The position numbers were made by a program, and so were the translations under genes. DNA of 32,000 nt, taken from NCBI GenBank assembly GCA_047651235.1, contig CP178758.1:2790001-2822000 (forward strand), written 5' to 3'. Of this stretch, positions 785 to 24,391 are shown piece after piece. This DNA comes from Candidatus Electrothrix yaqonensis. Its GTDB lineage: Bacteria; Desulfobacterota; Desulfobulbia; Desulfobulbales; Desulfobulbaceae. Numbering within the stretch: the stretch's first letter is position 1; the number at the start of each line of letters is the position of its first letter. Below the pieces are notes generated by a model that made no database searches, had not been told where the DNA came from, and saw only the letters and a program-made list of their open reading frames with translations.

Positions 785-820
785 AAAAAACAACAAAAGC
801 ATCCTCCGAACAGAGGATGC
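785..820 (-). terminator. Rho-independent terminator after the 973-1407 gene
   Basis: Perfect 8-bp stem gcatcctc (799-806) / gaggatgc (813-820) with a 6-nt loop. On the minus strand it is followed by TTTTGTTGTTTTTT (798-785). Confidence 0.65.
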
Positions 821-972
821 TGAGCTGCAGGTACTGCTGCTTTCCTTTTATCCTCCAGCCTGCAGAACACAGTACCGGCTCCGTCAGGCTTCCGATAAGA
901 TTGGCAGCAGTCTGCTGAATTGAACAGCTGCTTCGGAAGCAGACGAAACCGGTTCAGGAATGAGCAAAAGAG

Positions 973-1407
973 TCAATTCTTCCAGACACCGTTTTTAAGC
1001 TTGATTTCCTGATTCGGTTTTTTTTCAGGTCTCTCAGAAGAAGGACTGTTCTGCCGGGTGTTTTTCATGAGGCTTACCGATACGATCCGCTGTTCACCGG
1101 AGACCTCATCCTCGACCGAGGTGACAAGAACTTGATCACCGGCTTCAAACGAACTCAGTTCTGTTCTTTTACCGTATTGATCATACAGAAGGACAGAGCT
1201 GTTCACCGGAACGAAAGAATCACTGATAATAACAGCATTATTCTGAACAGAATCCACCGTGCCTGTTTCTTCTGCTGTCGCAACTTCGGTCTCTGGTTCC
1301 TCAGCAGTACTTCTTCCGGGGAGCACGACCATGACAGCTCCGAAAAGCAGCAGGGGCGATATGACTGCGGCTGTCTTTTGTAAAAAAAGTATTCTCAAGT
1401 TGTTCAT
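973..1407 (-). CDS. Small secreted hypothetical protein (144 aa), last gene of pilus module 1
   Basis: The track ORF 973-1500 is trimmed to the internal ATG at 1407, which is preceded by CCGGAGGCAACATA (GGAGG SD). MNNLRILFLQKTAAVISPLLLFGAVMVVLPG looks like a signal peptide or anchor. I recognise no family. It is followed by the terminator at 785-820. Confidence 0.55.
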   Translation of the reverse strand: MNNLRILFLQKTAAVISPLLLFGAVMVVLPGRSTAEEPETEVATAEETGTVDSVQNNAVIISDSFVPVNSSVLLYDQYGKRTELSSFEAGDQVLVTSVEDEVSGEQRIVSVSLMKNTRQNSPSSERPEKKPNQEIKLKNGVWKN

Positions 1408-1566: not shown

Positions 1567-4500
1567 TCAGTACTCTTTCCAGTAGTAAAAGCCTTTCTTT
1601 TCCTCCTTCGTCCATAATCCCTCGGTAACTCCGGCAGAACTGCTGAAGATATTCAATTCCCGGTCTGTCAGTTTATCGGGGTCATCGACCACAACAGGCG
1701 CATGAAGGATACCGTCGTAGAGTATTCCGCTTGCTGGATAAGACTTGCCATCTATATCCACCATATCCTTCTCATCAATCTTGCCGTCATGATTGATATC
1801 TATAATAATTTCATCTTGGCGACCGCCACGACAGAAGTCAAGTGCATGCACAATAGATTTTCCGCCGCCGTCACAGGGAGAGTCTCCGGGGATCAGGCTG
1901 ATGACAATGGCATTGCCGGATCGGATCATAACATCCTTGACCACCCGTTCTCCTGCCAAGGTTGCATCCTCGTCATCTTCGTCAATCTCACCGTCACCGT
2001 CGTTATCCCGTCCGTCTCGTCCGAGATCATAGGGCAGATCAAAAAACCAGCCGACATTTCCTTCACCGGAATCAGGATCATACCATTGCGGTTCGCTATT
2101 GGTCATTATCCGTATACCGTATCCCAGGCTCGTATCCCAGGCAATCTCTGTCTGCTCAAGCAGGGTCGGCTTCGGATCCTTTCCGAGCCCCGATCCGATA
2201 TCGGTCAGAACGTACTCCTTCTGAGCATCATCCCAGGCCCAGTCGCCGAGATAATCTTCCGGCTCGTCACCGAAATCCCAGATGCCGAAGAGCCCCTGCT
2301 GACTGTTGTCCCCGACATCATTTGCGCCAAGGAATTTTCCTGTACCGAAAACCACGATGTACCCCTCTTTTTCACAGTGAAAGGCGACATCAGGGGCCGA
2401 GGTGATCGGGCGCCCGACCTTAATCAGCGGTTTCGGGAGATCATGCTCTTCTGCGGAATTAACATCATTATAGTCAATCCGCCCATCATCGGAGTTATCT
2501 TTCCCGTAAAAGACGCCCCAGTTATCCGGGTTCGGGTTCCGAAGATCAAACTTCCACATATTGCCGTTCAGATCTCCGGCATAGACAAAGTCAACCCGAT
2601 CATCATTATCCACATCAACCAGGGTCGGAGAAGACAGACCGTTGTTCCCACCGGCACCTGTAGAAATTTTTCGGATCAGCTTGCCGGTCAACGCATCCAC
2701 AACATACAGCACTGCCACGCCATTTTTGCTCTGATATCCGTTGGCAAAAACGACAATCCAAGGGTGATCATCCTCCTTATACGTTTCGTTTCTGCTTTTA
2801 TAGGAGCGGGCGATAAAGGCATCCCCGTAGGTATATCCCATATCATCATCAGGCATGATCGTTTTACCGGACACAATGTTGGCCAGCACCATCTCTCCCG
2901 CTTCATCAATGATGCCGTCTCCATCATTATCAAAACCGTCGCTGTAGTTTTCATTGTCTCCGTTGTCATTTTCCTTGGGATCATCGTCTATATAGCCGTC
3001 TCCATCATTGTCAACTCCGTCATTCCGCTGATCTCCGGAAAAGGCGTACTCAATCCCGTCCGTCCCGACTGGAGGGTATTCCCACATCACCATCTTCTTT
3101 GCTGTGTCGGCTTCCCCGGAATCAGCAAATGTGGACTCAGCCGTGCTGACGTCCAAGGCGTAGATACCGCGTCCTCCCTTGTTCAGGGTGCCGACCAGCA
3201 GGGTAATGGTTTTGTATTCACCGGATTCATCAGTTTCGCCGTCTCCGTCATTATCTTCCTTGTCGGAATAGTCTTCATTGTCTCCGTTATCGGCTTCACT
3301 CACACCTGCAGGACATTCTTCTCCGTCCGTACAGCCGTCCCCGTCATTGTCTATCCCGTCTTCTGTCTGGTTACCAGCAAGAAATTTCAGCCGTTCAAAG
3401 CTCTGCCTGCCGTCAACATAGTACCTGTGCTCATAGTCAGGTTCAGCCAGTGCATCAAGATAGTCAAAAGAACGGAGCGGGACATAAGCAAAACGCTCCG
3501 TACCGGTTTCGGCATTAAAGGCATGGAGCATACCATCATTTCCGCCGACAAACAGTGTGCCGCCTGTTTCCTGCGGCTCCTCCTCATCAATTATCCCGTC
3601 ACCGTCATCATCAATACCGTTGTGCTTCTCATCATCCTCATCAATCAACTCGTTACCATCTGCATCCTTGTCATTGTCATTGTTTATCCCGTCGGAGAGA
3701 TAAGCATAATTCATGATTTCACCCTCATCAACAAGACCATCTTCATCATTATCAATGCCGTCGCTTTCCGGATTGGCCGTACTGACCAGAAGCGGCGCCG
3801 AGTGGACCAAGTCACCGAGTATTTTTTCTCTCTCCCGGAAACCGGTCACCTTTTTCCCGCGCAGATAGTCAACCAGATCGGATGCCTCCCCGGTGCTGCT
3901 TTCCATAATCTCCTGCTGGGCAGAGGACAACAGGTTCTTGTAGCGGAACGGAACGCCCTGAATTTCCTTTGTCATGTCATTGACTGTCAGGGTAAAAATA
4001 TTCCGTCCCGTGTCCCAATCCTGCATCTCCACTTTATCCTGTGCCTCCCACTTGCTGTGCTCCCGGTCAATCACGCCACTGCTCGGATCAATGGGATAGG
4101 CTGCAACATCGCCTGTCCAGTCGCCGGACGTATAGCTGGACTGATAGAGGATCAGGCCTGTGCTGAGTTCATCACCGTTCACCGATACGGAGGCGCCGGA
4201 TGCCTTGCGGCTGACAATGTCGGCAAACGTATCTTTTAAGGCGCTGACCAGGCTGTCCGGATCCTTGGCAGAGAAAAACCTTCCTCGTCCGTTGACCGAG
4301 GCATGCAGGAGATCATCTATTGTAGATGGCTCGTTCTGCTCAGGTTCAGGCCAGCCAGGAAGCAATTTTTTAGTTTCATCCTCCAGGAAATACGGATCAT
4401 CATCATATCCTATATCCGCCAGACTGATGGTGCCGTCCAGCCCGAAGGAAACACTGAAGGTCACCATGTGCTGCCGCTTGTTCTTGTCATAGTTGTTGGT

Positions 4501-6540
4501 GGGCATTTCATCAAGCAGGCTTGCCGCCAGATCGGTGTCGTAATAACGCATTGCCACGTCGGCCAATGTATTCGAGTAGTCATCAGCATAAGGAAGTATA
4601 CCAGAATAAAGAGATTTTTCTCCGTCCGCATTACCGACCTTCGGAGAACCGCCGTTCCAGAAGCCGTCGGTCATGGCAATGGCATAGGCATGCTGACAGG
4701 CGCCGCCTTGGTCTGCGGGCAGGTAGGGACAGTCTCCTATCCCTCCGTCGTCCTTGTCATCCATATGATAGTATTGGCCGACATCCTGCAGAGCTCGGCG
4801 CAGAGGGGTGTCGCCATCAGAATGAACCCGGTACAGGACATCAAGCAGCTCATTGGTCAGGTCAAACTTGCCCGAATCTACTCTTCCCTTCATTCTGAAC
4901 CGGACAGCATCGGCAACAGTGCTTGCTCCTGTACTGCGCCTGTGGCGGGTGATCTGTACAAAGTTGGTGCTTCCCCGCCCCAGATAATACGTACCGAGAT
5001 CCACCCAGTACCCGCAGCAGCCGGAACCTTCCGGATCGGTACAGTCGTCGCTTTCGGTTACAGTGCCCGATACTGCTGCTCTCTGGTTGTATTCTTCTAT
5101 TTCTTTCCCCAACCCGTGCTTAATAGTGATTCTTGCCTTCTGATCCCGGTCATCGGAACAGTTCCACCAGGCGGCAATCTCGTACAATCCCTTTTCATCT
5201 ATCTGCGGAGTAAACTTGGCCCATTGTATCTGGTCTGTAGATATTGAGCTGCCTTTCCATTCCGGTGTTTCACTGTCCTCCTCCCATTTCGCCTTCACAT
5301 GAGGGTTAAAGTGCTCAGAACCTGCATCCTGGTTGTCAATAATAATATCACCGCTTTCCTGTTGTATATTGACCGGCAGAACAGCCTGTTTCGCTCCTCC
5401 TCCCGTGCGGTTCTCATCTTCGTCCCTTCCTTTGTTGCGGACAGTGTTGCTGATATTCCGCCACAGCGTATTGAAGCCCACATACGCATTATCCATATCA
5501 ACTAAGGTGCGGGCAACAGCAGCCTTGGCTGTCAGTTCACGACGGCGGTAAAAAGAAAACCAGTTGGCAAAGTTTTGCAGATCAGCAATGTCGCTGACAA
5601 ACCCATCCGGGTTTCCGTCATTGTCATAGGTTCTGGGCTGAATGGCATCAGGCACGTCATCGCTGCCCGGATCATCCGGATCGTATTTTACTTCCGTCAG
5701 TGCAGTTACGTCTTCATGATTTTTGCTGTCATCGTTATACGAGACAAGATAATAATGACGGGTCACCTCATTCTTGTCGATGTGAATAACCCTGTCACTG
5801 TCCGTCCAGACAAGATGATCATTCCCGTTACTGTCCGTCCAGACAAAGTTGACAAGGTATACCTCATCATCGCGCTGGACTGTTCCGTCATCGTTCTGAA
5901 GTCTTCCGTCACCGTTTTTGTCATGGACCATATAATAATGGGCATTCCTGACCTCCACCGTTTTCTTCTTACCTGCCGGAAGATCAGCATACTTGGCATG
6001 CAGATTCAGGGTGGGCGTTCTCAGAATCGGATTTGAACGAGGGGTCTCCAAATCCGCATTAAAAGGAGGATAATCTCCGCCGTCTATGATTTTTTTCCCG
6101 TCAGGTCCTTCTGTATTGTCGGCCTTGTTCCAGCGCGGCCATGGTTCATACGATACAACAGGATTGTAATATATTCTGTTGTATACGGACCACTGCCCCT
6201 GCCACTCTTCGGGTTTACTTATATCACCGTTCACCTCGCCACGTTTATAAGCGTTATCCTGGAGCTCCCAGAGGTAGGAGGCACCAGCAAATTGACCATT
6301 ATTCTCCGGCACCATGAACGACCAGTCCATACTGCCCGAATTGTCCAGGACAAACATAATGTTCGGCGGCGGAGAAGCTATTCTGGTCTCCATCGTATCA
6401 TTGGTAAAATTTTCATCGTCGGCACAGACCTGACCGGCAGCTGCCGCAATGACGAACAAAGGTATCAGAAGCCGACACGCCAGCCAGCTGGCAGCGCGGC
6501 TTATCCTGTCCGCACAACATTCCGTAGTGATAGTTTTCAT
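1567..6540 (-). CDS. pilY1: Giant PilY1-like type IV pilus tip adhesin (1657 aa): split vWA domain, inserted beta-sandwich module, DNDGDG calcium-loop cassettes, C-terminal PilY1 propeller
   Basis: ATG at 6540 with SD AAAGGGGGA about 6 nt upstream. The N-terminal segment is hydrophobic. MIDAS motif IMFVLDNSGSMDW, with DTPLRRAL and AMTDG much later. NFANWFSFYRRRE resembles the PilY1 N-region motif. Propeller-type motifs GGNDGMLHAFN and VDVDNDDRVDFVYAGDLNGNMWKFDL (PilY1 calcium-site-like). It sits directly after the pilX-like gene. Confidence 0.85.
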   Translation of the reverse strand: MKTITTECCADRISRAASWLACRLLIPLFVIAAAAGQVCADDENFTNDTMETRIASPPPNIMFVLDNSGSMDWSFMVPENNGQFAGASYLWELQDNAYKRGEVNGDISKPEEWQGQWSVYNRIYYNPVVSYEPWPRWNKADNTEGPDGKKIIDGGDYPPFNADLETPRSNPILRTPTLNLHAKYADLPAGKKKTVEVRNAHYYMVHDKNGDGRLQNDDGTVQRDDEVYLVNFVWTDSNGNDHLVWTDSDRVIHIDKNEVTRHYYLVSYNDDSKNHEDVTALTEVKYDPDDPGSDDVPDAIQPRTYDNDGNPDGFVSDIADLQNFANWFSFYRRRELTAKAAVARTLVDMDNAYVGFNTLWRNISNTVRNKGRDEDENRTGGGAKQAVLPVNIQQESGDIIIDNQDAGSEHFNPHVKAKWEEDSETPEWKGSSISTDQIQWAKFTPQIDEKGLYEIAAWWNCSDDRDQKARITIKHGLGKEIEEYNQRAAVSGTVTESDDCTDPEGSGCCGYWVDLGTYYLGRGSTNFVQITRHRRSTGASTVADAVRFRMKGRVDSGKFDLTNELLDVLYRVHSDGDTPLRRALQDVGQYYHMDDKDDGGIGDCPYLPADQGGACQHAYAIAMTDGFWNGGSPKVGNADGEKSLYSGILPYADDYSNTLADVAMRYYDTDLAASLLDEMPTNNYDKNKRQHMVTFSVSFGLDGTISLADIGYDDDPYFLEDETKKLLPGWPEPEQNEPSTIDDLLHASVNGRGRFFSAKDPDSLVSALKDTFADIVSRKASGASVSVNGDELSTGLILYQSSYTSGDWTGDVAAYPIDPSSGVIDREHSKWEAQDKVEMQDWDTGRNIFTLTVNDMTKEIQGVPFRYKNLLSSAQQEIMESSTGEASDLVDYLRGKKVTGFREREKILGDLVHSAPLLVSTANPESDGIDNDEDGLVDEGEIMNYAYLSDGINNDNDKDADGNELIDEDDEKHNGIDDDGDGIIDEEEPQETGGTLFVGGNDGMLHAFNAETGTERFAYVPLRSFDYLDALAEPDYEHRYYVDGRQSFERLKFLAGNQTEDGIDNDGDGCTDGEECPAGVSEADNGDNEDYSDKEDNDGDGETDESGEYKTITLLVGTLNKGGRGIYALDVSTAESTFADSGEADTAKKMVMWEYPPVGTDGIEYAFSGDQRNDGVDNDGDGYIDDDPKENDNGDNENYSDGFDNDGDGIIDEAGEMVLANIVSGKTIMPDDDMGYTYGDAFIARSYKSRNETYKEDDHPWIVVFANGYQSKNGVAVLYVVDALTGKLIRKISTGAGGNNGLSSPTLVDVDNDDRVDFVYAGDLNGNMWKFDLRNPNPDNWGVFYGKDNSDDGRIDYNDVNSAEEHDLPKPLIKVGRPITSAPDVAFHCEKEGYIVVFGTGKFLGANDVGDNSQQGLFGIWDFGDEPEDYLGDWAWDDAQKEYVLTDIGSGLGKDPKPTLLEQTEIAWDTSLGYGIRIMTNSEPQWYDPDSGEGNVGWFFDLPYDLGRDGRDNDGDGEIDEDDEDATLAGERVVKDVMIRSGNAIVISLIPGDSPCDGGGKSIVHALDFCRGGRQDEIIIDINHDGKIDEKDMVDIDGKSYPASGILYDGILHAPVVVDDPDKLTDRELNIFSSSAGVTEGLWTKEEKKGFYYWKEY

Positions 6541-6556
6541 GCCCGTTCCCCCTTTA

Positions 6557-7165
6557 TCAGTAGCGCTTTCTATAGCCCGTTTCTATCATTTTGCTGATCG
6601 TTCTGCCTGTCATCGGGTCGTCATAATCGGCTTTCCCAATGAGCTTGAAAAAATAAAGATTCCCGGCTTTTCCCATTCCTAAGGATGAAGCCTCGTCACC
6701 TTTGACCACACCGTAGTCCAGTGCAGCCATCTCAACATCGTCTATTATTTCTGATTCTCTTCCTTTCCATATTTCTGATTCTCTTCCTTTCCATACATCT
6801 TCGTCACGCTCCATGAGTTTCTCCATAATATCAGGCTCAGATAACCATTTGGGAGCCATCGGACGTTTGGCTTTCAGCTTCTCCGGATCTTTTTCATTTT
6901 CCAGGCGCTGGCCTGACTCATTGACTGCCGCCTCGGCCTTATAAAAAAGCATTTTGGCTATGTTATCGTTACGGGCAATCTGCAGTTCGGTAACTGAAGT
7001 GCGGTTTGCGGATATACCGAGCAGGGTCAGCACGACCAGCACCATCATGCTGAGAGCAAGGACAAATCCTTCCTCATTCTCTATAAAACCGCTGCCCGAT
7101 GCATCAGGTGCGGTATGCTCAGGTTCTTCCCGAATAATTGTTTGTTCAAGTCTTTCCGGCTTCAT
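6557..7165 (-). CDS. pilX: PilX-like minor pilin / pilus assembly protein (PilX N-terminal type)
   Basis: GFVLALSMMVLVVLTLLGISANRTSVTELQIARN matches the PilX_N hydrophobic segment. The ATG overlaps the stop of the upstream pilV-like gene (ATGA, 7162-7165). It has an unusual 31-residue acidic N-terminal extension. Confidence 0.7.
   Translation of the reverse strand: MKPERLEQTIIREEPEHTAPDASGSGFIENEEGFVLALSMMVLVVLTLLGISANRTSVTELQIARNDNIAKMLFYKAEAAVNESGQRLENEKDPEKLKAKRPMAPKWLSEPDIMEKLMERDEDVWKGRESEIWKGRESEIIDDVEMAALDYGVVKGDEASSLGMGKAGNLYFFKLIGKADYDDPMTGRTISKMIETGYRKRY
6747..6794. repeat. Perfect 24-bp tandem duplication inside the pilX-like CDS
   Basis: atttctgattctcttcctttccat occurs at 6747-6770 and again at 6771-6794, identical and in frame. 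It encodes WKGRESEI twice. Confidence 0.95.
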
Positions 7166-7626
7166 ATCATTTTAACCCTCAAAAAACTGAGATTCACCTG
7201 TCGCTCACGGGCACCATACTCAACAGTAACGTCAACCTGTTTCATGCCGTCATCCACTTGATTCACTGTCCATTGAACTGATTTAATCAGGCCGTCCGGA
7301 CCGGGAGGATGAGCAAATTGTAATCTGTCAGCAAATTCCTTTAGTTTTGAATCATCGTAATTATGACACTTGTCTTTATCTTTGTGGCAATCTTCAGGTT
7401 TTGTCGCTTCCGTAACACTCAACGGCGTATCGGAATAATCTGTCTGCATCAGCTGTTCAATCACTTGGTTGGCGACCGTAACAGCATTCGTCTGCTGGTT
7501 CGCCCTGGTATTCCACCGCGCCGAATTGAACTGCATGCCATACAGTCCGAGAGAGCCGATGGCGAAAATAGCCATGGCTATTATGACCTCAATGAGAGAA
7601 AATCCGCTGTTTTTCTGATCTTTCAT
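7162..7626 (-). CDS. pilV: PilV-like minor pilin
   Basis: Prepilin N-terminus MKDQKNSG/FSLIEVIIAMAIFAIGSLGLYGMQ (class III signal, G-F-S-L-I-E). I prefer the ATG at 7626, with GAGGA 8 nt upstream. The track start at 7641 is a GTG overlapping the pilW stop and remains possible. Confidence 0.8.
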   Translation of the reverse strand: MKDQKNSGFSLIEVIIAMAIFAIGSLGLYGMQFNSARWNTRANQQTNAVTVANQVIEQLMQTDYSDTPLSVTEATKPEDCHKDKDKCHNYDDSKLKEFADRLQFAHPPGPDGLIKSVQWTVNQVDDGMKQVDVTVEYGARERQVNLSFLRVKMI

Positions 7627-7637
7627 GCTTTTCATCC

Positions 7638-8336
7638 TCACATGTTTCTGCAGTCAACCTTTATTATCTGTAGCCGGCGCCGGACGCTATCATTAAATGG
7701 TCCCGGATTCCACCAAGTTGTTTCGTCCTTCGGAGACGGATCCCAATATGTTTCTCTCAAAGTTTCATCCGAGTAGGAGGCCGGAAAATATGAATCTGTA
7801 TTAGTGTAATTGAGACTGATCCCTGATGACCTGACAAGGACTGAAATCGTCACTGAACGGATATCGCTTAACTGGCTGGAACTCGGCTCAACGGTTAACG
7901 TCCCATCCTTCAGAGTATACAAGAATTCTATATTCTCCACATTCTCAATCAGAACTCTCTTGTTGGAGGAATTTACCTCTCTGCCGAGATCATTCTGTCC
8001 GTCACTGTAACCATCATACAAATCATAATGAATTGTTTCCAATGCACCGGTTGCCTCGTTAATAACCCGGGTAAACTCAACTTCCTTCTCATTTGCCACA
8101 GTGAATCCAGCACCTGCGGTGGTATCCGGATCATACCCGGCCATTCTGAGTTCCCTGGCCATCATATCCAGCCCGGCCCGAAGATTCTGCTGCATTTCCA
8201 CGATCTGGTCCTGGGCCTGATTGATCCGCTGCTGACTGGTATACGCCGCATATATACCTGCTACAATAATACTGCTTATCGCCAGAGCGACCATTAACTC
8301 AACAAGGGTGAATCCGTGTCTGTCTGATAATCTCAT
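7638..8336 (-). CDS. pilW: PilW-like minor pilin
   Basis: Track ORF 7638-8414 trimmed to the ATG at 8336, 5 nt after the upstream stop. MRLSDRHG/FTLVELMVALAISSIIVAGIYAAYTSQQR and later LRAGLDMMARELRMAGYD are typical of PilW. The C-terminus ends in RNM, as in its paralog at 17669-18337. Confidence 0.8.
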   Translation of the reverse strand: MRLSDRHGFTLVELMVALAISSIIVAGIYAAYTSQQRINQAQDQIVEMQQNLRAGLDMMARELRMAGYDPDTTAGAGFTVANEKEVEFTRVINEATGALETIHYDLYDGYSDGQNDLGREVNSSNKRVLIENVENIEFLYTLKDGTLTVEPSSSQLSDIRSVTISVLVRSSGISLNYTNTDSYFPASYSDETLRETYWDPSPKDETTWWNPGPFNDSVRRRLQIIKVDCRNM

Positions 8337-8340
8337 GACC

Positions 8341-17166: not shown

Positions 17167-17661
17167 TCAGTCATTCTTCGTATTTTGTTTTATATAATCA
17201 TACACGGCTATATCCTCCTCTGTGCCTGTCCCCTGTGCAGGGCACTCTTTACTGCTCTTGGTGACGATCACTTTAATATATTTCGGTTTCTGATCCTCCG
17301 GTACATTTTCCAGGAGACAATCGTTGGCAATAGCCCAATAAACCGTATAGCAAGGAACCATCCCCACTCCGTTATTTTCAGAAGTATCATAGGGAAATGA
17401 CAGGTCTTCATATGACTTAGGGAGGTCTGCGCAGGTATGGGTTTCATTAAGCGTTTCGTACTCTAATCCGAGCAGGCGTTCTACTCTGTCAGCAGCCCAT
17501 ATGGACCCCGAAGTGATTGCGTTGGCTGAAAGGTTTTCCTTGATCGCAGCGGACTGCATACCGAAAAGTCCGAGAATACCGACTGTAAAAATCGCCATTG
17601 CCATCATGGTCTCAAGAAGGGTGAAACCGCTCTGTCCGGTTATTTTTTTCTGTGCTTTCAT
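17167..17661 (-). CDS. pilV: PilV-like minor pilin (module 2)
   Basis: Track ORF 17167-17859 trimmed to the ATG at 17661 (AGGA SD; 7 nt after the upstream stop). MKAQKKITGQSG/FTLLETMMAMAIFTVGILGLFGMQ. Confidence 0.8.
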   Translation of the reverse strand: MKAQKKITGQSGFTLLETMMAMAIFTVGILGLFGMQSAAIKENLSANAITSGSIWAADRVERLLGLEYETLNETHTCADLPKSYEDLSFPYDTSENNGVGMVPCYTVYWAIANDCLLENVPEDQKPKYIKVIVTKSSKECPAQGTGTEEDIAVYDYIKQNTKND

Positions 17662-17668
17662 ATCCTGC

Positions 17669-18337
17669 TCACATATTACGTAGTTGAACTGATGTGATAA
17701 AAAGCCGACGATGGAAGTGGTCATTGTACGCACCCCATAATAAGGGACCATCTTCCGGTGGCAATCCCGATCCAGGTTTATAGGTAACCGAATCAGTATA
17801 TTTTGGATCAGGGTATGTTGACCGGACAAGCATGGAAATCCGAACGGTCTGAATATCATCTGGATCTGCCGGATCAGTACTCAGCGAGTTCCCGTCCTCG
17901 TCAAAATATAAAAATTCAAAACCGTCCACACCTTCGAGGAGTAATTCTTCGGTTTCTTCGGGAGCTACTCCATCGTCCTCCAGCCAAAAAAGATTAGTAC
18001 CATCCAAGCTATACGTCACGGTAACTTTTTTCCCTCCTGTATTACAGGTTTCAAAGGCAAATTCCGTCGGATTTGCGGTTGTTATCACTCCGCTGGTGCA
18101 GTTATTGTCCGCATCGTCAAAGCCCGCCATCCTGATGTCCCGTGCCATAAAATCCAAAGCGGAACGCCCTTTCTGCTGCAGTTCGCTGACCTGCTCCTGA
18201 ACAGTATAACTCCTCTGCTGAATCGTATATACTCCAATTATCCCGGCAATGACCAGACCTGATATCACCATGGCAACCATAAGTTCAACAAGCGTGAACC
18301 CGCCGTTATAATCTTTCTGCAGCGTTTTCTTTATCAT
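17669..18337 (-). CDS. pilW: PilW-like minor pilin (module 2)
   Basis: Track ORF trimmed to the ATG at 18337. MIKKTLQKDYNGG/FTLVELMVAMVISGLVIAGIIGVYTIQQRS and later GRSALDFMARDIRMAGFD. The C-terminus ends in LRNM, like the module 1 paralog. Confidence 0.8.
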   Translation of the reverse strand: MIKKTLQKDYNGGFTLVELMVAMVISGLVIAGIIGVYTIQQRSYTVQEQVSELQQKGRSALDFMARDIRMAGFDDADNNCTSGVITTANPTEFAFETCNTGGKKVTVTYSLDGTNLFWLEDDGVAPEETEELLLEGVDGFEFLYFDEDGNSLSTDPADPDDIQTVRISMLVRSTYPDPKYTDSVTYKPGSGLPPEDGPLLWGAYNDHFHRRLFITSVQLRNM

Positions 18338-18365
18338 AATGTTTAACCTTGCTCTATTCCCTGTA

Positions 18366-18881
18366 TCACTTTTCCCAAGCTGCACCGGCATATCTTCTTA
18401 TTTTGACAGTACCAATCTTGTTTACGGTTACAGCATAGCATACATCCTGCTTATTTTGGCTCTGCAGATATACAGTGCCTTTACTGGCATCTCCCCTGGG
18501 CTCGAAGGTGAGATCACCGTCCACGCCCGATCCAGGTATAGCGTCACCTTTCCAGTCTGTTGCCGTGGCGTTGCATCCATATCCAACAGCTCCGTAATCC
18601 GTTAACGCTACGATAGTATCGTTATCTCCATTGGGATATGAATACCTTTTTTCATCTGTATTAAAAGTAACCGTGACATCCTTGTTACTCTTCACCGCCA
18701 GCAGTCTCGCCTTCTGCAGGTCCGCATACAGATTTCGGGCAGCATTCTTCAGCCGTTTTTCCGGCAGACTGCGCAGATAATTCGGAACAGCTATGGCACT
18801 GAGGATACCGACCAGAGCAATCACCACCATAAGTTCAGCAAAAGAAAAGCCAGCTGTCTTGTTTAATTTTATTCGTTTCAT
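18366..18881 (-). CDS. GspH/FimT/FimU-family pseudopilin, first gene of module 2
   Basis: MKRIKLNKTAG/FSFAELMVVIALVGILSAIAVPNYLRSLPEKRLKNAARNLYADLQKARLLAVKSN. It has a prepilin N-terminus plus the GspH-type helix motif. ATG at 18881, with a weak SD. Confidence 0.75.
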   Translation of the reverse strand: MKRIKLNKTAGFSFAELMVVIALVGILSAIAVPNYLRSLPEKRLKNAARNLYADLQKARLLAVKSNKDVTVTFNTDEKRYSYPNGDNDTIVALTDYGAVGYGCNATATDWKGDAIPGSGVDGDLTFEPRGDASKGTVYLQSQNKQDVCYAVTVNKIGTVKIRRYAGAAWEK

Positions 18882-18926
18882 TGTTATGTCATTGTGTATG
18901 CGTCAGGTAGCTTTTTTGATTATACA

Positions 18927-18942
18927 TGCAAGGGGCATTCCA
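18927..18942 (-). promoter_or_regulatory. Candidate sigma-54 (-24/-12) promoter of pilus module 2
   Basis: The minus strand reads TGGAATGCCCCTTGCA against TGGCACG-N4-TTGCW. GG and GC have exact spacing and 10 of 12 defined positions match. The predicted leader is ~35 nt to the ATG at 18881. A TATAAT hexamer (minus strand, 18924-18919) sits just downstream, so a sigma-70 -10 reading is an alternative. Confidence 0.5.
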
Positions 18943-19218
18943 GAGGCAGATAAAAAAAGAGATGGAAATTAATTAACGGTTTACCTGTATGAAATAATGA
19001 GGGATTCATTTTGTCTGAAGGCATATTTTACCGGACTTGCTAATTTTCTTAAAAAATGGATTATACATTCCTTAGTGCAACATACTGTTTGTTATGAAGT
19101 AATATCCTCTTCTGCGTTTCCGTATCCAGCTGGCAATATAAAATTTTTTCCTGGAAGATGCCCCTATTGTAATTTTTTTTTACACTTCTTTCTCATCTGT
19201 TTTCAGTGAATTATATTT

Positions 19219-20625
19219 TCATTTAGACTCCGCTTCCACACCGTACTGTTTAATCTTGCTGAGCAAAGAAGGATAGCTTACTTCAAGTATCTCTGCAGCC
19301 TTGCTTTTGTTTCCCTGGGTTGCGGTAAGAGCTTGGCGGATAAGGCGTTCCTCTACTCTTCGGCGTCCTTCTTTGATTGAGGATACTCCAGCCAGGATAT
19401 CAAAAGAAGCTTCGTCATGGCTTCCGCTGATGTTTGCAGGCAGGTTTTCCGGCTGAATATAAGGCTCCTCAGTCAGAATAACTGCCCGCTCTATAGCGTT
19501 TTCCAGTTCTCGGACATTGCCGGGCCAGGAATAGGTGAGCAGAAGCTGCATGGCAGCCTGGGAAACCCCTTCAATCTCCGGCCTGTTCATACTGGAGGCA
19601 AGTTTCCCGACAAAATATTCGCACAGAAACGGTATATCCGTCTTGCGGTCCCGAAGCGGCGGTATCTGTATATTGATCACATTGAGCCGATAATATAAAT
19701 CCTCCCGGAAACGCCCTTCCTGCGCCTCTTGGGCAAGATCTCTGGCTGTGGCGGCCAGGATACGGACATCGACTTTTCTTCTCCCGGTTGTACCGAGCCG
19801 CATGATCTCCTGCTCCTGCAGAACCCGCAGCAGCTTGACCTGCATAGCAAGGGGCAGTTCACCGATTTCATCAAGAAAAAGTGTTCCTTTGTCCGCCTCT
19901 TCAAAAAGTCCTTTTTTATCCCGGTCCGCCCCGGTAAAGGCTCCTCGGGCATAGCCGAAGAATTCGCTTTCCAGTAGATTTTCCGGTATACTGCCGCAAT
20001 TGACCGCGATAAACGGCTTGTCAGCCCTGTCGCTTCTGTGGTGGATGCCCCAGGCAACCAGCTCTTTGCCTGTGCCTGATTCGCCGGTAATCAGAACCGT
20101 TGTCGGGTGCTTTGCCACCTTGTCGGCAAGCTGAAAAACACTCCGCATAGCTCTGCTGCTGCCGATCATATTCCCGAATCCCTGTTTCTGTTCAAGATCG
20201 GCGAGTTTCTTTTTCAGCCGGACATTTTCCCGCCGCAGCCGCTCCCGCTCTTCCGCCTTTTTCAGAACCAGGACCACTTCATCATTTTTGAAGGGTTTGG
20301 AGATAAAATCATATGCTCCCAGTTTCATGGCCTCAATAGCTGTGTCAATAGTGCCGTAGGCTGACATCATGATCACGGTGGCGGTATGATCAATCGATTC
20401 GGCTGCTTTGAGAAAGGCCAGTCCGTCCATATTCGGCATTCTGATATCGCAGAGGACAAAATCAAAGGATTTTTTCTCCAGCAGAGCGAGCGCCTCTGCA
20501 CCGTCGGCAGCAGTTTCCGCCTGATATCCTTCTTTACTCAGCAGCACGGACAGCATATGGCGCATATTATCCTCGTCATCTATCACAAGGATATTGCAGG
20601 GGATATTTTTTTTGGGGTCACTCAT
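19219..20625 (-). CDS. Sigma-54-dependent response regulator (NtrC family; PilR-like by context)
   Basis: REC domain (ILVIDDEDNMRHML ... DFVLCDIRMPNMDG). AAA+ domain with Walker A VLITGESGTGKE, intact GAFTGA, LFLDEIGE and WPGNVRELEN. C-terminal Fis-type HTH (GNKSKAAEILEVSYPSLLSKIKQYG). I prefer the ATG at 20625 (AGGA 6 nt upstream, 8-nt overlap with the kinase stop). The track start at 20646 is a TTG. Confidence 0.9.
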   Translation of the reverse strand: MSDPKKNIPCNILVIDDEDNMRHMLSVLLSKEGYQAETAADGAEALALLEKKSFDFVLCDIRMPNMDGLAFLKAAESIDHTATVIMMSAYGTIDTAIEAMKLGAYDFISKPFKNDEVVLVLKKAEERERLRRENVRLKKKLADLEQKQGFGNMIGSSRAMRSVFQLADKVAKHPTTVLITGESGTGKELVAWGIHHRSDRADKPFIAVNCGSIPENLLESEFFGYARGAFTGADRDKKGLFEEADKGTLFLDEIGELPLAMQVKLLRVLQEQEIMRLGTTGRRKVDVRILAATARDLAQEAQEGRFREDLYYRLNVINIQIPPLRDRKTDIPFLCEYFVGKLASSMNRPEIEGVSQAAMQLLLTYSWPGNVRELENAIERAVILTEEPYIQPENLPANISGSHDEASFDILAGVSSIKEGRRRVEERLIRQALTATQGNKSKAAEILEVSYPSLLSKIKQYGVEAESK

Positions 20626-22207
20626 CAGCATTCCTGTGCATAGCAAGGGGCAGGAAGATGAACAGCTCGCTCCCCTGTCCCGCCCTGCTTTTCATGTCTA
20701 TACAGCCTCCAGCGGTTTCAATGATGGAACGGGATACGGAGAGGCCCAGCCCTGTTCCTTTTCCCGGCTCTTTAGTTGTGTAAAAAGGATCAAAAACCAC
20801 GGGCAGCTGATCTTCTGCAATACCGGTTCCGTTATCCGAAATACGGATACAGAGAAAATGCAATGATTCCAGATCTCTCCCTTCCGAGTATTCAGTCGGC
20901 ATTTCATGCAGTTTTTCGGTCAGCACTGTTATCCTGCCCTCCTCTCCGGCAGGGCGGTTCGCTGTGTTCACTGCATCCGCACTGTTGAGGAGACAGTTGA
21001 CAAAAACCTGGTGCAGCTGGTCCCGGTCTGCGCAGACCGTATCATGCCCTGCTGTAAATTTGGTTGTCAAAGCAATTTTTTTAAAAGCGGCCTGTACCCG
21101 GACCATATTGACAGTTGACTGCAGCAGCTCATGCAGGGAAAATTCTTCAGTCCTGGCTGCTGCTGTTCTGGAAAAGTCCAGAAGCTGCCGGATCAGGTTA
21201 TTTACCCGCTGCAGCTCATCTTCAGAACGGCGGATAAAATCCCTGTTTTCTTCGTTCTGCTCCCCGGATCCGGCAAGCATACCAAGATATCCCTGCACAG
21301 CCCCGATCGGGTTGCCTATTTCATGGGCCAGTCCGGCTGCCATCCTGCCGACCGAGGCCAGCTTTTCCGCCCGGATCATTTCCCGCTGCTGTTTTTTCAG
21401 AGTAGTATTGGCCTGCTCAAGGGCGGCAACCGTCTCCCGTAGCGACCGGCGGTCGTACTCTATCCTTGTCAGCATCCTGTTCAGGCTGCCGGATAACTTG
21501 CCGAATGCATTGGAACTCTCCGCAGCGAACAAAAAAGGATCATAACTGCTGTACTGATCAGCAAGCTGCACCAACTGTTCAACCGGTCGGAAGACCAACT
21601 TTGCCGTTCTGAAAAAACTGACAGCGGTCAGGACCATTAAGTTCAGGAGCAGATAAACAGAAATCGTTTTTCCGGCTTCCCGCAGGGGGCGCAGAGCCGG
21701 TTCAAGCGGGCGGACAACAGCGACAGCACCGATAATCTGCCCCTGCCGGATAAACGGGCGCGCACTGACAAGAAGATTTTTACACGGCAGCCAAGGGGAA
21801 ACAGTACCAGCTGTACGGCTGACCAATTTCCCTGTCTCGGCATCGGCAATTGCTGAAGCCAGCAGGGCTGCTCTCTCTTTGTCGATGCCGGAATACGTCC
21901 CGATATCCAATATCCTTTTCTTCTTCTGTTTACGCTCACCATCTGTACCCGGAGAAGACAAAAATAAAATATCTCCCTCTTCTCCGCCGGTATAAAAATC
22001 GGAAAAAACAAATTTGTTTTCCGCAGAATTGTGCTGTGCTGCTGCATCCGTCTGCAGCAGGGTCAGAATGTGAGCAAGCACAGCTTGGTCGCGCTTTGCC
22101 TCACGTTGCAGGATATCATGCTTCCAGAAAGTAATCAGAACAAAATATACCAGCAGCATCCCGATCAGCAATAAGCTGCCTATAGTCAACGTCAGCCTTG
22201 TCTTCAC
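20618..22207 (-). CDS. Sensor histidine kinase with periplasmic sensor domain
   Basis: GTG start at 22207 with a weak SD. Two hydrophobic segments (residues ~7-27 and ~185-205) flank a ~155-aa loop. H-box LAHEIGNPIGAV, N-box VNCLLNSADAV, G1 ISDNGTGI, G2 GTGLGLSVS. It is translationally coupled to the regulator. Confidence 0.85.
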   Translation of the reverse strand: MKTRLTLTIGSLLLIGMLLVYFVLITFWKHDILQREAKRDQAVLAHILTLLQTDAAAQHNSAENKFVFSDFYTGGEEGDILFLSSPGTDGERKQKKKRILDIGTYSGIDKERAALLASAIADAETGKLVSRTAGTVSPWLPCKNLLVSARPFIRQGQIIGAVAVVRPLEPALRPLREAGKTISVYLLLNLMVLTAVSFFRTAKLVFRPVEQLVQLADQYSSYDPFLFAAESSNAFGKLSGSLNRMLTRIEYDRRSLRETVAALEQANTTLKKQQREMIRAEKLASVGRMAAGLAHEIGNPIGAVQGYLGMLAGSGEQNEENRDFIRRSEDELQRVNNLIRQLLDFSRTAAARTEEFSLHELLQSTVNMVRVQAAFKKIALTTKFTAGHDTVCADRDQLHQVFVNCLLNSADAVNTANRPAGEEGRITVLTEKLHEMPTEYSEGRDLESLHFLCIRISDNGTGIAEDQLPVVFDPFYTTKEPGKGTGLGLSVSRSIIETAGGCIDMKSRAGQGSELFIFLPLAMHRNADE

Positions 22208-22275
22208 ATTTTCTGTTGTCTGCTGCGTAACTTCTCGGGATATCGGAGTTGGTTCCTGAATTTTATCTTTGTTTA

Positions 22276-22304
22276 TTTGTAGTTAAAAAAAACAGCTTTG
22301 TCAA
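22276..22304 (-). promoter_or_regulatory. Candidate sigma-70 promoter of the kinase/regulator operon
   Basis: The minus strand reads TTGACA (22304-22299), a 17-nt spacer, then TACAAA (22281-22276). It lies ~70 nt upstream of the GTG at 22207. Confidence 0.4.
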
Positions 22305-22384
22305 ACGAGATTGTGCTGTTCACAAAAGGAAAAAGGCGCGGATGAAATTTTATTTTAGAGAGGGGGGCGGCAGAGGGAGTTGAA

Positions 22385-22412
22385 TGAAAAAACGGGAACC
22401 GAAGCTCCCGTT
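22385..22412 (-). terminator. Hairpin with flanking A/T runs (likely minus-strand terminator, possibly bidirectional)
   Basis: acggga(a)c cgaa g(c)tcccgt stem at 22392-22411 with one mismatch. A6 lies upstream and T4 downstream on the plus strand, so the minus strand has a T6 tail. It sits between the 22659-23075 gene and the kinase promoter. Confidence 0.45.
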
Positions 22413-22658
22413 TTCGTTCTATGAGGCGATAGACGAATAACTTTTAGTCTGCAGATGCTTGTTCCGGTGCCGGTTTATATACCTTCCGTTGCGGATGTAC
22501 CGACTCCTGCCACTCTGCAGCGTGATGGTATAGCTGGAGCAACATAATTTGAATATGCCCACAAGAGGCATAAGTTTTGCCTTCACGCCTTTCAGATAGC
22601 TGATCCTGTATTCAGTTTATACTGCTCCAGCTATAAGTACCATTGTTCACGCCAAGGG

Positions 22659-23075: not shown

Positions 23076-23265
23076 TTGAGTTGCCTCCTTTCTTTTTGAG
23101 TTTAATATAAAAAAATAAGTTCATAAGTGATTGAAAACGAGTTGCATTGCAAGAGAAAAAGTATTTTTTACGATGGCATATTTTCAGCGCACATATGCAG
23201 CTCCGGAAGATCAGGTTTCAAGGTGCTCCCGATATGTTGATAACAGAATTCTAACAGTTTTCCTC

Positions 23266-24355: not shown

Positions 24356-24391
24356 AACAGTACAACTAATCTGTTGTGTCTATTATATAAA

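What the first reader, a model, noticed from the sequence alone, without database searches (positions are those of the whole stretch)
1567..22207. Two tandem minor-pilin + giant PilY1 modules with a separating terminator, next to a sigma-54 two-component pair
Both modules show the same order: GspH/FimT-like, PilW-like, PilV-like, PilX-like, PilY1-like. W precedes V, unlike the P. aeruginosa fimU-pilVWXY1E order. A strong terminator (9889-9924) separates them, and each has its own -24/-12-like element. The PilY1 paralogs (1657 and 2132 aa) are much larger than the roughly 1100-1200 aa P. aeruginosa protein. They share only the split vWA and C-terminal propeller motifs; their inserted regions are unrelated. 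The window contains no major pilin and no PilBCMNOPQT. By analogy with Myxococcus xanthus, which has several minor-pilin/PilY1 clusters, these could be interchangeable tip or priming complexes. Such complexes would give one pilus machine two different adhesive specificities.
Basis: partly seen in the sequence, partly recalled or inferred. Interest (0 to 1): 0.65.

Follow-up and report, generated by a model that had tools for sequence, protein, structure and literature searches.

The report
Two tandem pilus-tip adhesin gene modules
A bacterium related to cable bacteria carries, behind one sigma-54 regulator pair, two complete gene sets for the tip and priming complex of type IV pili, each with a different giant sugar-binding adhesin; this is a well-supported new example of an arrangement already known from Myxococcus.

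Summary
On the minus strand lie a histidine kinase, an NtrC-type sigma-54 activator, and two minor-pilin/PilY1 modules. A strong terminator (9926..9896, -29.5 kcal/mol) separates the modules, and each is preceded by a GG-N10-GC sigma-54 element.

- Module B has two GspH/FimT genes, so there are 11 proteins, not 10. It also includes a conserved small secreted protein (1407..973).
- The order H-W-V-X-Y1 is the norm in every related Desulfobulbales locus examined.
- The 2132-aa protein fails Pfam's PilY1 threshold alone. It is a PilY1 homologue by family profile (3HX6, E=1e-16) and by predicted fold (3HX6, E=1.5e-14).

The closest named relatives are cable bacteria (Ca. Electrothrix, Ca. Electronema). 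Type A PilY1 carries CBM5/12 chitin-binding-type repeats and 58 cysteines. Type B carries a Golvesin_C domain and eight DxDxDG calcium-type loops. Minor pilins group by module type across genomes.

Behind the same regulator pair, E. communis has only A and Electrothrix AX5 has B. AR4 probably has A then B, as here.

The "alternative tip complexes" reading is plausible and matches published M. xanthus work, but it is untested here. Verdict: a new member of a known kind, of moderate interest.

The parts
20618..22207 (-). Sensor histidine kinase: two predicted transmembrane segments (aa 3-30 and 180-202) flanking a periplasmic loop of about 150 aa, then HisKA and HATPase_c
   Evidence: Pfam HisKA E=4.9e-15 and HATPase_c E=2.7e-21. 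Hydropathy. Syntenic orthologues.
19219..20646 (-). NtrC-family sigma-54-dependent response regulator (receiver + AAA+ with GAFTGA + HTH_8)
   Evidence: Sigma54_activat E=2.2e-73, Response_reg E=1.4e-31, HTH_8. GAFTGA at aa 235 and Walker A GESGTGK. 76% identical to the Ca. Electrothrix communis orthologue.
19168..19184 (.). AT-rich palindrome TGTA-N9-TACA, a candidate activator-binding site about 230 nt upstream of the module A promoter
   Evidence: The only exact occurrence in the window, against 0.19 expected. The same palindrome lies at the same place in E. communis and Electronema aureum, and upstream of the module B promoter in Electrothrix AR4. Its function is inferred.
18927..18942 (-). 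Sigma-54 -24/-12-like element of module A (TGGAATGCCCCTTGCA), 45 nt before the start codon
   Evidence: Equivalent GG-N10-GC elements lie upstream of the first minor pilin in L003, L004, L006 (both modules) and L008, and in L092.
18366..18881 (-). Module A GspH/FimT(FimU)-like minor pilin (171 aa)
   Evidence: Pfam GspH E=1.5e-10 and N_methyl. Prepilin site TAG|FSFAE.
17669..18391 (-). Module A PilW-like minor pilin
   Evidence: PF16074 PilW, 34.2 bits (cut-off 26), and N_methyl. Site NGG|FTLVE.
17167..17661 (-). Module A PilV-like minor pilin (164 aa from ATG 17661; the longer 230-aa ORF overlaps pilW)
   Evidence: TIGR02523 PilV is the best match, E=1.1e-8, below cut-off. Gene call of 164 aa in L001. 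Site QSG|FTLLE.
16425..17060 (-). Module A PilX-like minor pilin (no Glu5)
   Evidence: PilX_N, 31 bits (cut-off 25.5). Sequence EQG|FVMIA. Closest to the PilX of A-type modules in other genomes.
9955..16353 (-). Type A giant PilY1 homologue (2132-aa ORF, probably 2131 aa from the ATG at 16350). It has a signal peptide, a DxSxS motif, three CBM5/12-like repeats (aa ~139-291), a cysteine-rich insert (58 Cys in total) and a C-terminal PilY1 propeller.
   Evidence: CBM_5_12 E=2.7e-11. Family profile against 3HX6 E=9.8e-17 and against the CBMs of Vibrio chitin oligosaccharide deacetylase. AF2 C-terminal model pLDDT 77.5 / pTM 0.83, Foldseek 3HX6 E=1.5e-14. The N-terminal model hits only CBM5/12 folds. 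Cys count.
9886..9926 (-). Intrinsic terminator after module A
   Evidence: 14-bp stem, 9 G-C pairs, T-run. dG -29.5 kcal/mol, z -6.8. A homologous hairpin follows the A-type PilY1 gene of Electrothrix AR4.
9541..9556 (-). Sigma-54 -24/-12-like element of module B (CGGCACGAATACTGCT), 18 nt before ATG 9522
   Evidence: It aligns with the promoter and leader that lie directly downstream of the regulator gene in Electrothrix AX5.
8938..9522 (-). Module B GspH/FimT-like minor pilin 1 (194 aa)
   Evidence: GspH E=8.6e-9 and N_methyl. Site EGG|FSLIE.
8341..8928 (-).
   Evidence: GspH E=3.1e-10 and N_methyl. 49% identical to paralogue 1. A 77-nt stretch is 90% identical in DNA. AX5 also has two.
7638..8336 (-). 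Module B PilW-like minor pilin (232 aa from ATG 8336)
   Evidence: N_methyl E=8.8e-10. PilW 19.9 bits, below cut-off. PpdB-type NF007848 E=2.4e-11. Best matches are the PilW of B-type modules.
7162..7641 (-). Module B PilV-like minor pilin
   Evidence: TIGR02523, 46.5 bits (cut-off 52.2) over 116 residues. 59% identical to AX5 B-type PilV, against about 37% to module A PilV.
6557..7165 (-). Module B PilX-like minor pilin (no Glu5)
   Evidence: PilX_N, 39 bits. Groups with the PilX of B-type modules.
1567..6540 (-). Type B giant PilY1 (1657 aa). It has a DxSxS motif, a Golvesin_C domain (aa ~400-550), TDG and T MIDAS-type motifs, a PilY1 propeller with the canonical Ca site (DVDNDDRVD), and eight DxDxDGxxD loops.
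   Evidence: PF05567 E=7.6e-40 and Golvesin_C E=2.4e-14. 3HX6 E=3e-39. Ca-site alignment. Loop count. NF040838 PilC E=6e-25.
973..1407 (-). Small secreted protein (144 aa, C-terminus NGVWKN), conserved directly downstream of B-type PilY1 genes
   Evidence: Homologues follow B-type PilY1 in L006, L007, L008, L090/L091 and L094. No Pfam or NCBIfam family.
798..821 (-). Second intrinsic terminator, the likely end of the module B transcription unit
   Evidence: 10-bp stem and T-run. dG -16 kcal/mol, z -4.2.

Best explanation
The region is a regulatory slot followed by two cognate cassettes for the type IVa pilus priming and tip complex.

Shown:
- A membrane histidine kinase with a periplasmic loop and an NtrC-type sigma-54 activator are followed by module A (GspH/FimT, PilW, PilV, PilX, a 2132-aa PilY1) and module B (two GspH/FimT, PilW, PilV, PilX, a 1657-aa PilY1, a small secreted protein).
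- Each module has a GG-N10-GC promoter-like element, and a strong hairpin terminator lies between them.
- Both giants end in a PilY1-type propeller. They differ in what is inserted into the N-terminal vWA-like region: three CBM5/12 (chitin-binding-type) repeats and a cysteine-rich domain in A, a Golvesin_C domain and many calcium-type loops in B.
- PilV, PilW and PilX group by module type across genomes.
- Relatives carry A, B or both behind the same regulator pair.

Inferred, by analogy with M. xanthus and P. aeruginosa:
- In each module the four minor pilins assemble with PilY1 into a complex. This complex primes pilus polymerisation in a type IVa machine encoded elsewhere and stays at the tip.
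- The variable N-terminal part of PilY1 decides what the pilus sticks to.
- The adjacent two-component system activates the sigma-54 promoters.
- The two modules are transcribed separately, so the cell can change or mix tip adhesins with different glycan or calcium-dependent binding.
For: - Family assignments of all 11 proteins and the prepilin sites.
- PilY1 homology of B5 and of A5.
- The A/B shared core with unrelated N-termini.
- CBM5/12 in A5. Golvesin_C and the Ca loops in B5.
- Terminator.
- Sigma-54 elements in the window, and conserved upstream of the first minor pilin in seven related promoter regions.
- The regulator has GAFTGA.
- Conserved synteny HK-RR-module-sat in E. communis, Electronema aureum, Desulfopila aestuarii, Desulfogranum marinum and several genomes assembled from metagenomes.
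- Whole-module replacement in Electrothrix AX5: HK 84% and RR 89% identical to E. communis, but a B-type module follows.
- A probable A-then-B tandem in Electrothrix AR4, with the same terminator.
- Minor pilins cluster by module type.
- The module B promoter region is homologous to the regulator-proximal promoter of AX5.
- Published function of such modules, and their control by an NtrC-like regulator: PMC7541494, PMC9109919, PMC13190605.
Against: - There are no expression data. The terminator may leak, and the sigma-54 elements are consensus matches; the loose pattern as a whole is not enriched in the window.
- The pilus machine and major pilin are not in the window, so 'one machine' cannot be checked.
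- A5 alone is below Pfam's PilY1 threshold and lacks the canonical 9-residue Ca site.
- The vWA assignment is weak.
- Carbohydrate binding by the CBM5/12 and Golvesin_C regions is inferred from family names only.
- The candidate activator site TGTA-N9-TACA is perfect only upstream of module A. Module B has a TGTA-N7-TACA variant abutting the -24 element.
Confidence: 0.7

Rival explanations
1. The two modules form one read-through operon and are always made together. The cell would then display a fixed mixture of tips, or one set would be only a structural helper, and the two would not be alternative complexes.
For: Both modules are on the same strand behind one regulator pair. Intrinsic terminators are often partial. 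The module B promoter sits only 18 nt from the annotated start codon.
Against: The terminator is very strong (-29.5 kcal/mol, 14 bp plus T-run), and a homologous hairpin follows the A-type PilY1 gene in AR4. Module B keeps a sigma-54 promoter and leader homologous to the one that drives a stand-alone B module in AX5. Relatives function with A alone or B alone.
Confidence: 0.2
2. The two modules serve two different filament machines, for example a motility or adhesion type IVa pilus and a secretion-type pseudopilus, rather than one machine.
For: Cable bacteria are reported to encode two GspF/PilC-like platform proteins in all genomes (PMC10580974). The minor pilins also give weak hits to T2SS GspH/I/J/K models.
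Against: Both modules end in a PilY1 propeller protein, the hallmark of type IVa pili. Both PilX-like proteins match PilX_N above threshold, while the GspK match is far below its cut-off (17.7 vs 130 bits). The modules replace each other in one genomic slot in close relatives.
Confidence: 0.08
3. One module is a redundant leftover of a duplication or transfer and is no longer functional.
For: M. xanthus cluster_2 is not detectably expressed under laboratory conditions (PMC7541494).
Against: All 11 ORFs are intact with signal sequences. Both PilY1 types have full-length orthologues at 45-60% identity in other cable bacteria and across Desulfobulbales. The pilins of the two modules are only about 37-43% identical over local BLAST matches, so the duplication is old and both copies have been maintained.
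Confidence: 0.02

Closest known systems
Myxococcus xanthus minor-pilin/PilY1 clusters 1-3 (PMC7541494, PMC13190605) and their control by the NtrC-like HsfBA phosphorelay (PMC9109919)
   Same: Several complete sets of four minor pilins plus a PilY1 in one genome. The C-terminal propeller is conserved and the N-terminal domains vary, including a vWA and a sugar-binding-type domain. An NtrC-family regulator sets which PilY1 is made. The proposed role is exchangeable priming and tip complexes on one pilus.
   Different: Here the two sets are adjacent on one strand directly behind the regulator genes. The gene order is H-W-V-X-Y1. The N-terminal inserts are CBM5/12 repeats or Golvesin_C, not DUF4114. 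PilY1 is larger (1657 and 2132 aa), with up to 58 cysteines. Nothing has been tested experimentally.
Pseudomonas aeruginosa fimU-pilVWXY1Y2E operon and PilY1 (structure 3HX6)
   Same: GspH-, PilV-, PilW- and PilX-type minor pilins are followed by PilY1. B5 aligns with 3HX6 including the calcium site, and the A5 model's best fold match is 3HX6. A small gene follows pilY1, as pilY2 does in P. aeruginosa (my own knowledge).
   Different: The P. aeruginosa order is U-V-W-X, and its operon is controlled by FimS-AlgR, not a sigma-54 activator (both my own knowledge). It has one module only. No pilE-like pilin was found here. The small downstream protein has no detectable family.
Neisseria and Kingella PilC1/PilC2 paralogues
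   Same: Two PilY1-family adhesins with different binding properties serve one pilus (as summarised in PMC13190605). B5 hits the PilC model NF040838 at E=6e-25.
   Different: The Neisseria paralogues share one set of minor pilins and are unlinked. Here each PilY1 has its own cognate minor pilins.
Single HK-RR-minor pilin-PilY1-sat loci of Ca. Electrothrix communis, Ca. Electronema aureum, Desulfopila and Desulfogranum
   Same: Orthologous kinase and regulator (RR 58-76% identical), the same gene order, a sigma-54 element in the two Ca. loci (L003, L004; not tested in Desulfopila or Desulfogranum), and an A-type PilY1 with CBM5/12.
   Different: These carry only one module. The window has a B-type module inserted between the A module and sat.

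Membership tests
Type IVa pilus minor-pilin/PilY1 priming-tip module | Four core minor pilins (FimU/T-GspH, PilV, PilW, PilX types) with class III signal peptides (Gly-1, Phe+1, Glu+5; PilX lacks Glu5) | tested here: met
   N_methyl/TIGR02532 hits in seven proteins. GspH, PilW and PilX_N are above their cut-offs in module A. GspH and PilX_N are above cut-off in module B, with PilW and PilV as best matches below cut-off. The motif scan finds exactly these genes.
Type IVa pilus minor-pilin/PilY1 priming-tip module | PilY1/PilC protein with a C-terminal beta-propeller (PF05567; fold of 3HX6) | tested here: met
   B5: 137.5 bits against a cut-off of 28.1, and 3HX6 E=3e-39. A5: only 16.8 bits alone, but the family profile gives 3HX6 E=9.8e-17 over four colinear stretches and Foldseek gives 3HX6 E=1.5e-14, TM 0.63 on the target.
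Type IVa pilus minor-pilin/PilY1 priming-tip module | EF-hand-like calcium site in the propeller (DxDxDxxxD before the YAGDxxGxxW motif) | tested here: inconclusive
   B5 has DVDNDDRVD aligned to the P. aeruginosa site. In A5 the corresponding loop is expanded (VDYNID...x13...D) and is not canonical (sequence).
Type IVa pilus minor-pilin/PilY1 priming-tip module | Works with a PilBCMNOPQT machine and a major pilin | not testable with these tools
   None of these genes is in the window. Cable bacteria are reported to encode a type IVa system and a highly expressed PilA (PMC10580974).
von Willebrand factor A (vWA) domain with MIDAS | DxSxS...T...D motifs within a Rossmann-like vWA fold recognised by VWA models | tested here: inconclusive
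   DNSGS, TPL and TDG (B5) or TEG (A5) motifs are present and invariant. No Pfam VWA hit on the native proteins. After the inserts were excised, 8 of 10 B-family constructs hit VWA_2 weakly (best E=0.004; cut-off not reached), and for the window's construct the match spans both junctions. No PDB profile hit. No vWA fold hit, but the model was cut inside the domain.
Carbohydrate-binding module family 5/12 | Match to PF02839 above threshold and a CBM5/12 fold | tested here: met
   43.7 bits against a cut-off of 26.2 at A5 aa 249-291. The profile matches the tandem CBMs of Vibrio chitin oligosaccharide deacetylases over about 100 residues. Foldseek hits 3WX7, 9JEO and 4NY2 at probability 1.0. Ligand binding was not tested.
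Sigma-54-dependent transcription unit with a bacterial enhancer-binding protein | Activator with an AAA+ Sigma54_activat domain and the GAFTGA loop | tested here: met
   E=2.2e-73. GAFTGA at aa 235.
Sigma-54-dependent transcription unit with a bacterial enhancer-binding protein | -24 GG / -12 GC promoter upstream of the regulated genes | tested here: met
   Both window sites match 10 of 12 specified positions. Equivalent sites (9-11 of 12) occur in seven related promoter regions. Use of these sites by sigma-54 was not tested.
Sigma-54-dependent transcription unit with a bacterial enhancer-binding protein | Upstream activator-binding sites recognised by the adjacent regulator | tested here: inconclusive
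   TGTA-N9-TACA is unique in the window and recurs at the matching place in L003, L004 and L093. It is imperfect upstream of module B and absent in more distant relatives. Binding was not tested.
PilS-PilR pilin-sensing two-component system | PilS-type kinase with about six transmembrane helices that senses the major pilin (my own knowledge) | tested here: not met
   The kinase has two hydrophobic segments and a periplasmic loop of about 150 aa. The regulator's best NCBIfam match is AtoC/NtrC-type, below the equivalog cut-offs. It is therefore filed as an NtrC-family pair, not as PilSR.

The most novel reading that the evidence does not exclude
In cable bacteria and their relatives, whole minor-pilin/PilY1 modules act as exchangeable cassettes in one sigma-54-controlled slot: A in E. 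communis, B in AX5, A plus B here and probably in AR4. On this reading, the single adjacent NtrC-type regulator chooses between a chitin-type (CBM5/12) tip and a calcium-loop/Golvesin_C tip, possibly reciprocally as HsfA does in M. xanthus. That would give these non-culturable filament formers a switchable way to attach to or glide on different substrates.
Probability: 0.3. Interest if true: 0.6.

Novelty: new member of a known kind. Interest (0 to 1): 0.4.

Why it matters
The function of type IV pili in cable bacteria is an open question. PilA is their most abundant protein, yet its role is unclear (PMC10580974). No paper in the searchable library mentions PilY1 or minor pilins together with cable bacteria.

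This locus gives concrete, testable candidates for what those pili bind. One is a conserved PilY1 with chitin-binding-type modules. The other is a PilY1 with a different putative glycan-binding domain and many calcium sites. The locus also offers a likely regulator.

The locus also shows that complete tip modules are gained, lost or swapped as units behind a conserved regulator pair. This extends the M. xanthus picture of tailored pilus tips to another phylum-level lineage. It does not reveal a new kind of system.

Tried and rejected
- Single-sequence searches of the 2132-aa protein against Pfam, NCBIfam and PDB gave no significant PilY1 hit. A family profile and a structure model were needed.
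- Fold search of the A5 N-terminal 1000 residues found only the CBM5/12 repeats, no vWA and no match for the cysteine-rich insert.
- A profile of insert-excised vWA constructs found nothing in PDB.
Those loci had to be fetched by exact-protein look-ups.
- A search for long sequence motifs shared between the two promoter regions found only short AT-rich words.
- A T2SS pseudopilin interpretation was rejected: PilY1 propellers and PilX_N are present, and the GspK match is far below its cut-off.
- Haem-binding CXXCH motifs in the cysteine-rich A5 were looked for by eye; none was seen.
- Rfam and tRNA scans of the window found nothing.
- Long antisense ORFs inside the giant genes have no family and were treated as artefacts.

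Full report
**Layout.** Every gene of the finding is on the minus strand. In transcription order the region holds:
- a histidine kinase (22207..20618);
- an NtrC-type response regulator (20646..19219);
- a 337-nt intergenic region;
- module A (18881..9955);
- a 432-nt intergenic region that starts with a hairpin terminator;
- module B (9522..1567);
- a 144-aa ORF (1407..973);
- a second terminator (821..798).

A contig from the same organism extends past the left edge of the window. It shows a 300-aa protein and then ATP sulfurylase (sat).

**The small proteins.** Pfam and NCBIfam assign the small proteins as follows.
- Module A: GspH/FimT-like, PilW-like (PF16074, above cut-off), PilV-like (TIGR02523, best match but below cut-off), and PilX-like (PilX_N, above cut-off).
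- Module B: two GspH/FimT-like proteins, then PilW-like, PilV-like and PilX-like.

There are therefore eleven proteins, not ten. Seven proteins have a G|F-x-x-x-E prepilin site. The two PilX-like proteins lack Glu5, as PilX and GspK do. A six-frame motif scan finds no further pilin in the window, so the statement 'no major pilin' holds. The other genes in the window are housekeeping or unrelated: a DHH phosphoesterase, dehydroquinate synthase, an Lcl_C protein, an SPFH protein and an acyltransferase.

**The 1657-aa protein (B5).** B5 is a clear PilY1. It matches PF05567 at E=7.6e-40, the P. aeruginosa PilY1 C-domain structure 3HX6 at E=3e-39, and the Neisseria PilC model at E=6e-25. Its alignment with 3HX6 includes the calcium site (DVDNDDRVD followed by YAGDLNGNMWKFD). 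It also carries a Golvesin_C domain (E=2.4e-14) and eight DxDxDGxxD loops, seven of them DNDGDG. The literature describes the Golvesin/xanthan-lyase domain as a CBM6/35/36-like carbohydrate-binding domain (PMC9166713).

**The 2132-aa protein (A5).**
- Alone, it scores only 16.8 bits on PF05567 (cut-off 28.1) and finds no PilY1 in PDB.
- A profile of 28 family members hits 3HX6 at E=9.8e-17, in four colinear stretches that cover chain residues 39-502.
- An AlphaFold model of residues 1000-2132 (pLDDT 77.5, pTM 0.83) has 3HX6 as its best fold match (E=1.5e-14, probability 1.0). The next hit is above 1e-3.
- Many homologues carry precomputed PF05567 hits and are named PilY1 by their sources.

The refutation therefore does not apply.

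**N-terminal part of A5.** A5 has one CBM_5_12 match above threshold (aa 249-291). Two further repeats are detected by the family profile and by fold against the tandem CBMs of Vibrio chitin oligosaccharide deacetylases and against chitinase chitin-binding domains. It contains 58 cysteines. No known fold was found for the cysteine-rich insert.

**What the two giants share.** A profile-profile comparison aligns A5 aa 811-2126 with B5 aa 560-1655 (E=9e-44). This span covers the T and TDG/TEG MIDAS-type motifs, the SRxASGxSxSV motif, a linker and the propeller. Upstream of it, only the LDNSGSM motif is shared.

The vWA label itself is only weakly supported.
- Native sequences give no VWA hit.
- With both inserts excised, 8 of 10 B-family constructs hit VWA_2 (best E=0.004). 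For the window's construct the match spans the two junctions.
- PDB profile and fold searches gave nothing.

**Who has this.** The best named homologues of A5 are from cable bacteria (Ca. Electrothrix and Ca. Electronema, 45-59% identity). Other Desulfobulbaceae follow. B5 homologues occur in Electrothrix AR4 and AX5, in Desulfobulbaceae, and more widely in Desulfobacterota. Sat is 93% and the regulator 76% identical to Ca. E. communis. The source is thus a relative of cable bacteria. Its exact identity is not established.

**Synteny.** The unit HK - sigma-54 regulator - GspH(-GspH) - PilW - PilV - PilX - PilY1 - (0-2 genes) - sat is conserved. It is found in Ca. E. communis, Ca. Electronema aureum, Desulfopila aestuarii, Desulfogranum marinum and several genomes assembled from metagenomes. 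The order W before V is the same in all of them, so it is a lineage trait and not a feature of this locus. It also happens to be colinear with the modelled physical order FimU-PilW-PilV-PilX-PilY1 (PMC13190605).

The content of the slot varies:
- A-type only in E. communis and Electronema;
- B-type in an ENA contig, L008;
- B-type in Ca. Electrothrix AX5, whose kinase and regulator are 84% and 89% identical to those of E. communis, yet all five of its minor pilins best match the window's module B;
- A and B adjacent but divergent in one assembled genome (L006), and two divergent minor-pilin sets in another (L065), where the second set's PilY1 type was not identified;
- A followed by B on one strand in the window, and probably in Electrothrix AR4.

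In AR4, two contigs that seem to join within pilX give this order: A-type PilY1, a terminator homologous to 9926..9896, two Lcl_C genes, a sigma-54 promoter, PilW-V-X, and a B-type PilY1.

Among 80 related loci from species-representative genomes, five have a second module within 10 kb. Adjacency is thus uncommon but not unique.

**Cognate sets.** PilV and PilX of module A score two to four times higher against A-type modules of other genomes than against module B of the same genome. Module B's PilW, PilV and PilX behave the same way towards B-type modules. The duplication is old, and each PilY1 type travels with its own minor pilins. [quoted passage not shown]

B-type modules are also always followed by a small secreted protein ending in NGVW(K/R/V)N. 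Three of them (the window's, L007 and L091) are additionally followed by a repeat protein homologous to the 300-aa protein left of the window. These proteins have no family assignment.

**Regulation.**
- The regulator has a receiver domain, an AAA+ Sigma54_activat domain with GAFTGA, and HTH_8.
- The kinase has two transmembrane segments around a periplasmic loop, so it is not PilS-like.
- The GG-N10-GC elements are at 18942..18927 and 9556..9541. Each matches 10 of 12 specified consensus positions, and they lie 45 and 18 nt upstream of the first gene of each module.
- The loose pattern is not enriched in the window as a whole. However, only five sites have two or fewer mismatches, and two of those are these sites.
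- Equivalent elements occur upstream of the first minor pilin in seven related promoter regions.
- The module B promoter and leader align with the region directly downstream of the regulator gene in AX5, including a 15-nt identical block.
- The palindrome TGTA-N9-TACA occurs once in the window, at 19168-19184 between the regulator gene and the module A promoter (0.19 expected). It recurs at the matching position in E. communis and Electronema, and about 115 nt upstream of the B-module promoter in AR4. It is a candidate activator site.
- Upstream of the window's module B, only a TGTA-N7-TACA variant is present, abutting the -24 element.

All regulatory function is inferred.

**Terminators.** The hairpin 9926..9896 has a 14-bp stem with 9 G-C pairs and a T-run. 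It folds at -29.5 kcal/mol, and none of 200 shuffles folds as well. A weaker terminator at 821..798 follows the 144-aa ORF.

**Comparison with what is known.** M. xanthus has three minor-pilin/PilY1 clusters. Either of two suffices for pilus formation. The complex primes assembly and sits at the tip with the variable PilY1 N-terminus outermost, and the authors proposed tips with different properties (PMC7541494). The NtrC-like HsfA directly activates pilY1.1 and represses pilY1.3 (PMC9109919). A 2026 survey describes multiple PilY1 copies per genome as common. It also describes extended cysteine-rich variants, and only vWFA and DUF4114 as recognised N-terminal domains in studied proteins (PMC13190605).

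The new elements here are:
- the lineage (relatives of cable bacteria, where minor pilins and PilY1 are not discussed in the searchable literature);
- the CBM5/12 and Golvesin_C inserts;
- the tandem placement behind a conserved sigma-54 pair;
- the cassette-like presence and absence of modules among close relatives.

**Verdict.** This is a new member of a known kind, of moderate interest.

Noticed in passing
window 973-1407 (-), with homologues in L006 15325-15714, L007 6783-7253, L008 15278-15703, L091 8371-8814 and L094 5301-5744: A small secreted protein with a conserved C-terminus NGVW(K/R/V)N always follows B-type PilY1 genes. It has no Pfam or NCBIfam family. It may be an accessory factor, as PilY2 or TfcP are next to other pilY1 genes.
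   Followed up: partly
L009 8111-9013 (just left of the window); L007 7416-9116; L091 9030-9953: A repeat protein, with a weak PPC-domain hint in L007, follows the small protein in three B-type loci (the window's, L007 and L091). The copy in the window's own genome ends with a duplicated KAMPWLMLLL motif.
   Followed up: partly
window 8786-8862 and 9383-9459: The two GspH/FimT paralogues of module B share a 77-nt stretch that is 90% identical. The independent metagenome contig L001 ends exactly there, which suggests an assembly break at the repeat.
   Followed up: yes
window 1702-4239 (+): An 845-aa open reading frame runs antisense inside the type B PilY1 gene, and other antisense ORFs of 190-314 aa lie inside both giant genes. 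None has a family match. They are probably by-products of the acidic-repeat codon usage.
   Followed up: partly
window 22200-29650 compared with L003 16768-26006: The block DHH/DHHA2 - dehydroquinate synthase - Lcl_C - SPFH/zinc-ribbon - acyltransferase lies downstream of PilY1 and sat in Ca. E. communis. In the window it lies upstream of the kinase, on the opposite strand. The pilus locus is therefore inverted relative to this block.
   Followed up: partly
window 25818-27026 (+); L093 5675-7132; L003 22126-23365: Lcl_C-domain (adhesin-type) proteins recur near these pilus loci. In Electrothrix AR4, two of them sit between the A-type PilY1 and the B-type minor pilins.
   Followed up: no
L004 3095-3873 (Ca. 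Electronema aureum): A PilA-like pilin gene lies divergent from the kinase gene. It has a near-consensus sigma-54 promoter (TGGCACAGTTCTTGCT) and, upstream of that, two tandem copies of the palindrome TGACAATTTTTGTCA. This palindrome differs from the TGTA-N9-TACA site near the minor-pilin promoters.
   Followed up: partly
window 22659-23075 (-): A 138-aa protein with a signal peptide lies just upstream of the kinase gene. It has no family match, and it is not a pilin.
   Followed up: no
window 9532-9546 (approx.): A TGTA-N7-TACA variant of the candidate activator palindrome directly abuts the -24 element of the module B promoter. It is not conserved in Electrothrix AX5.
   Followed up: partly
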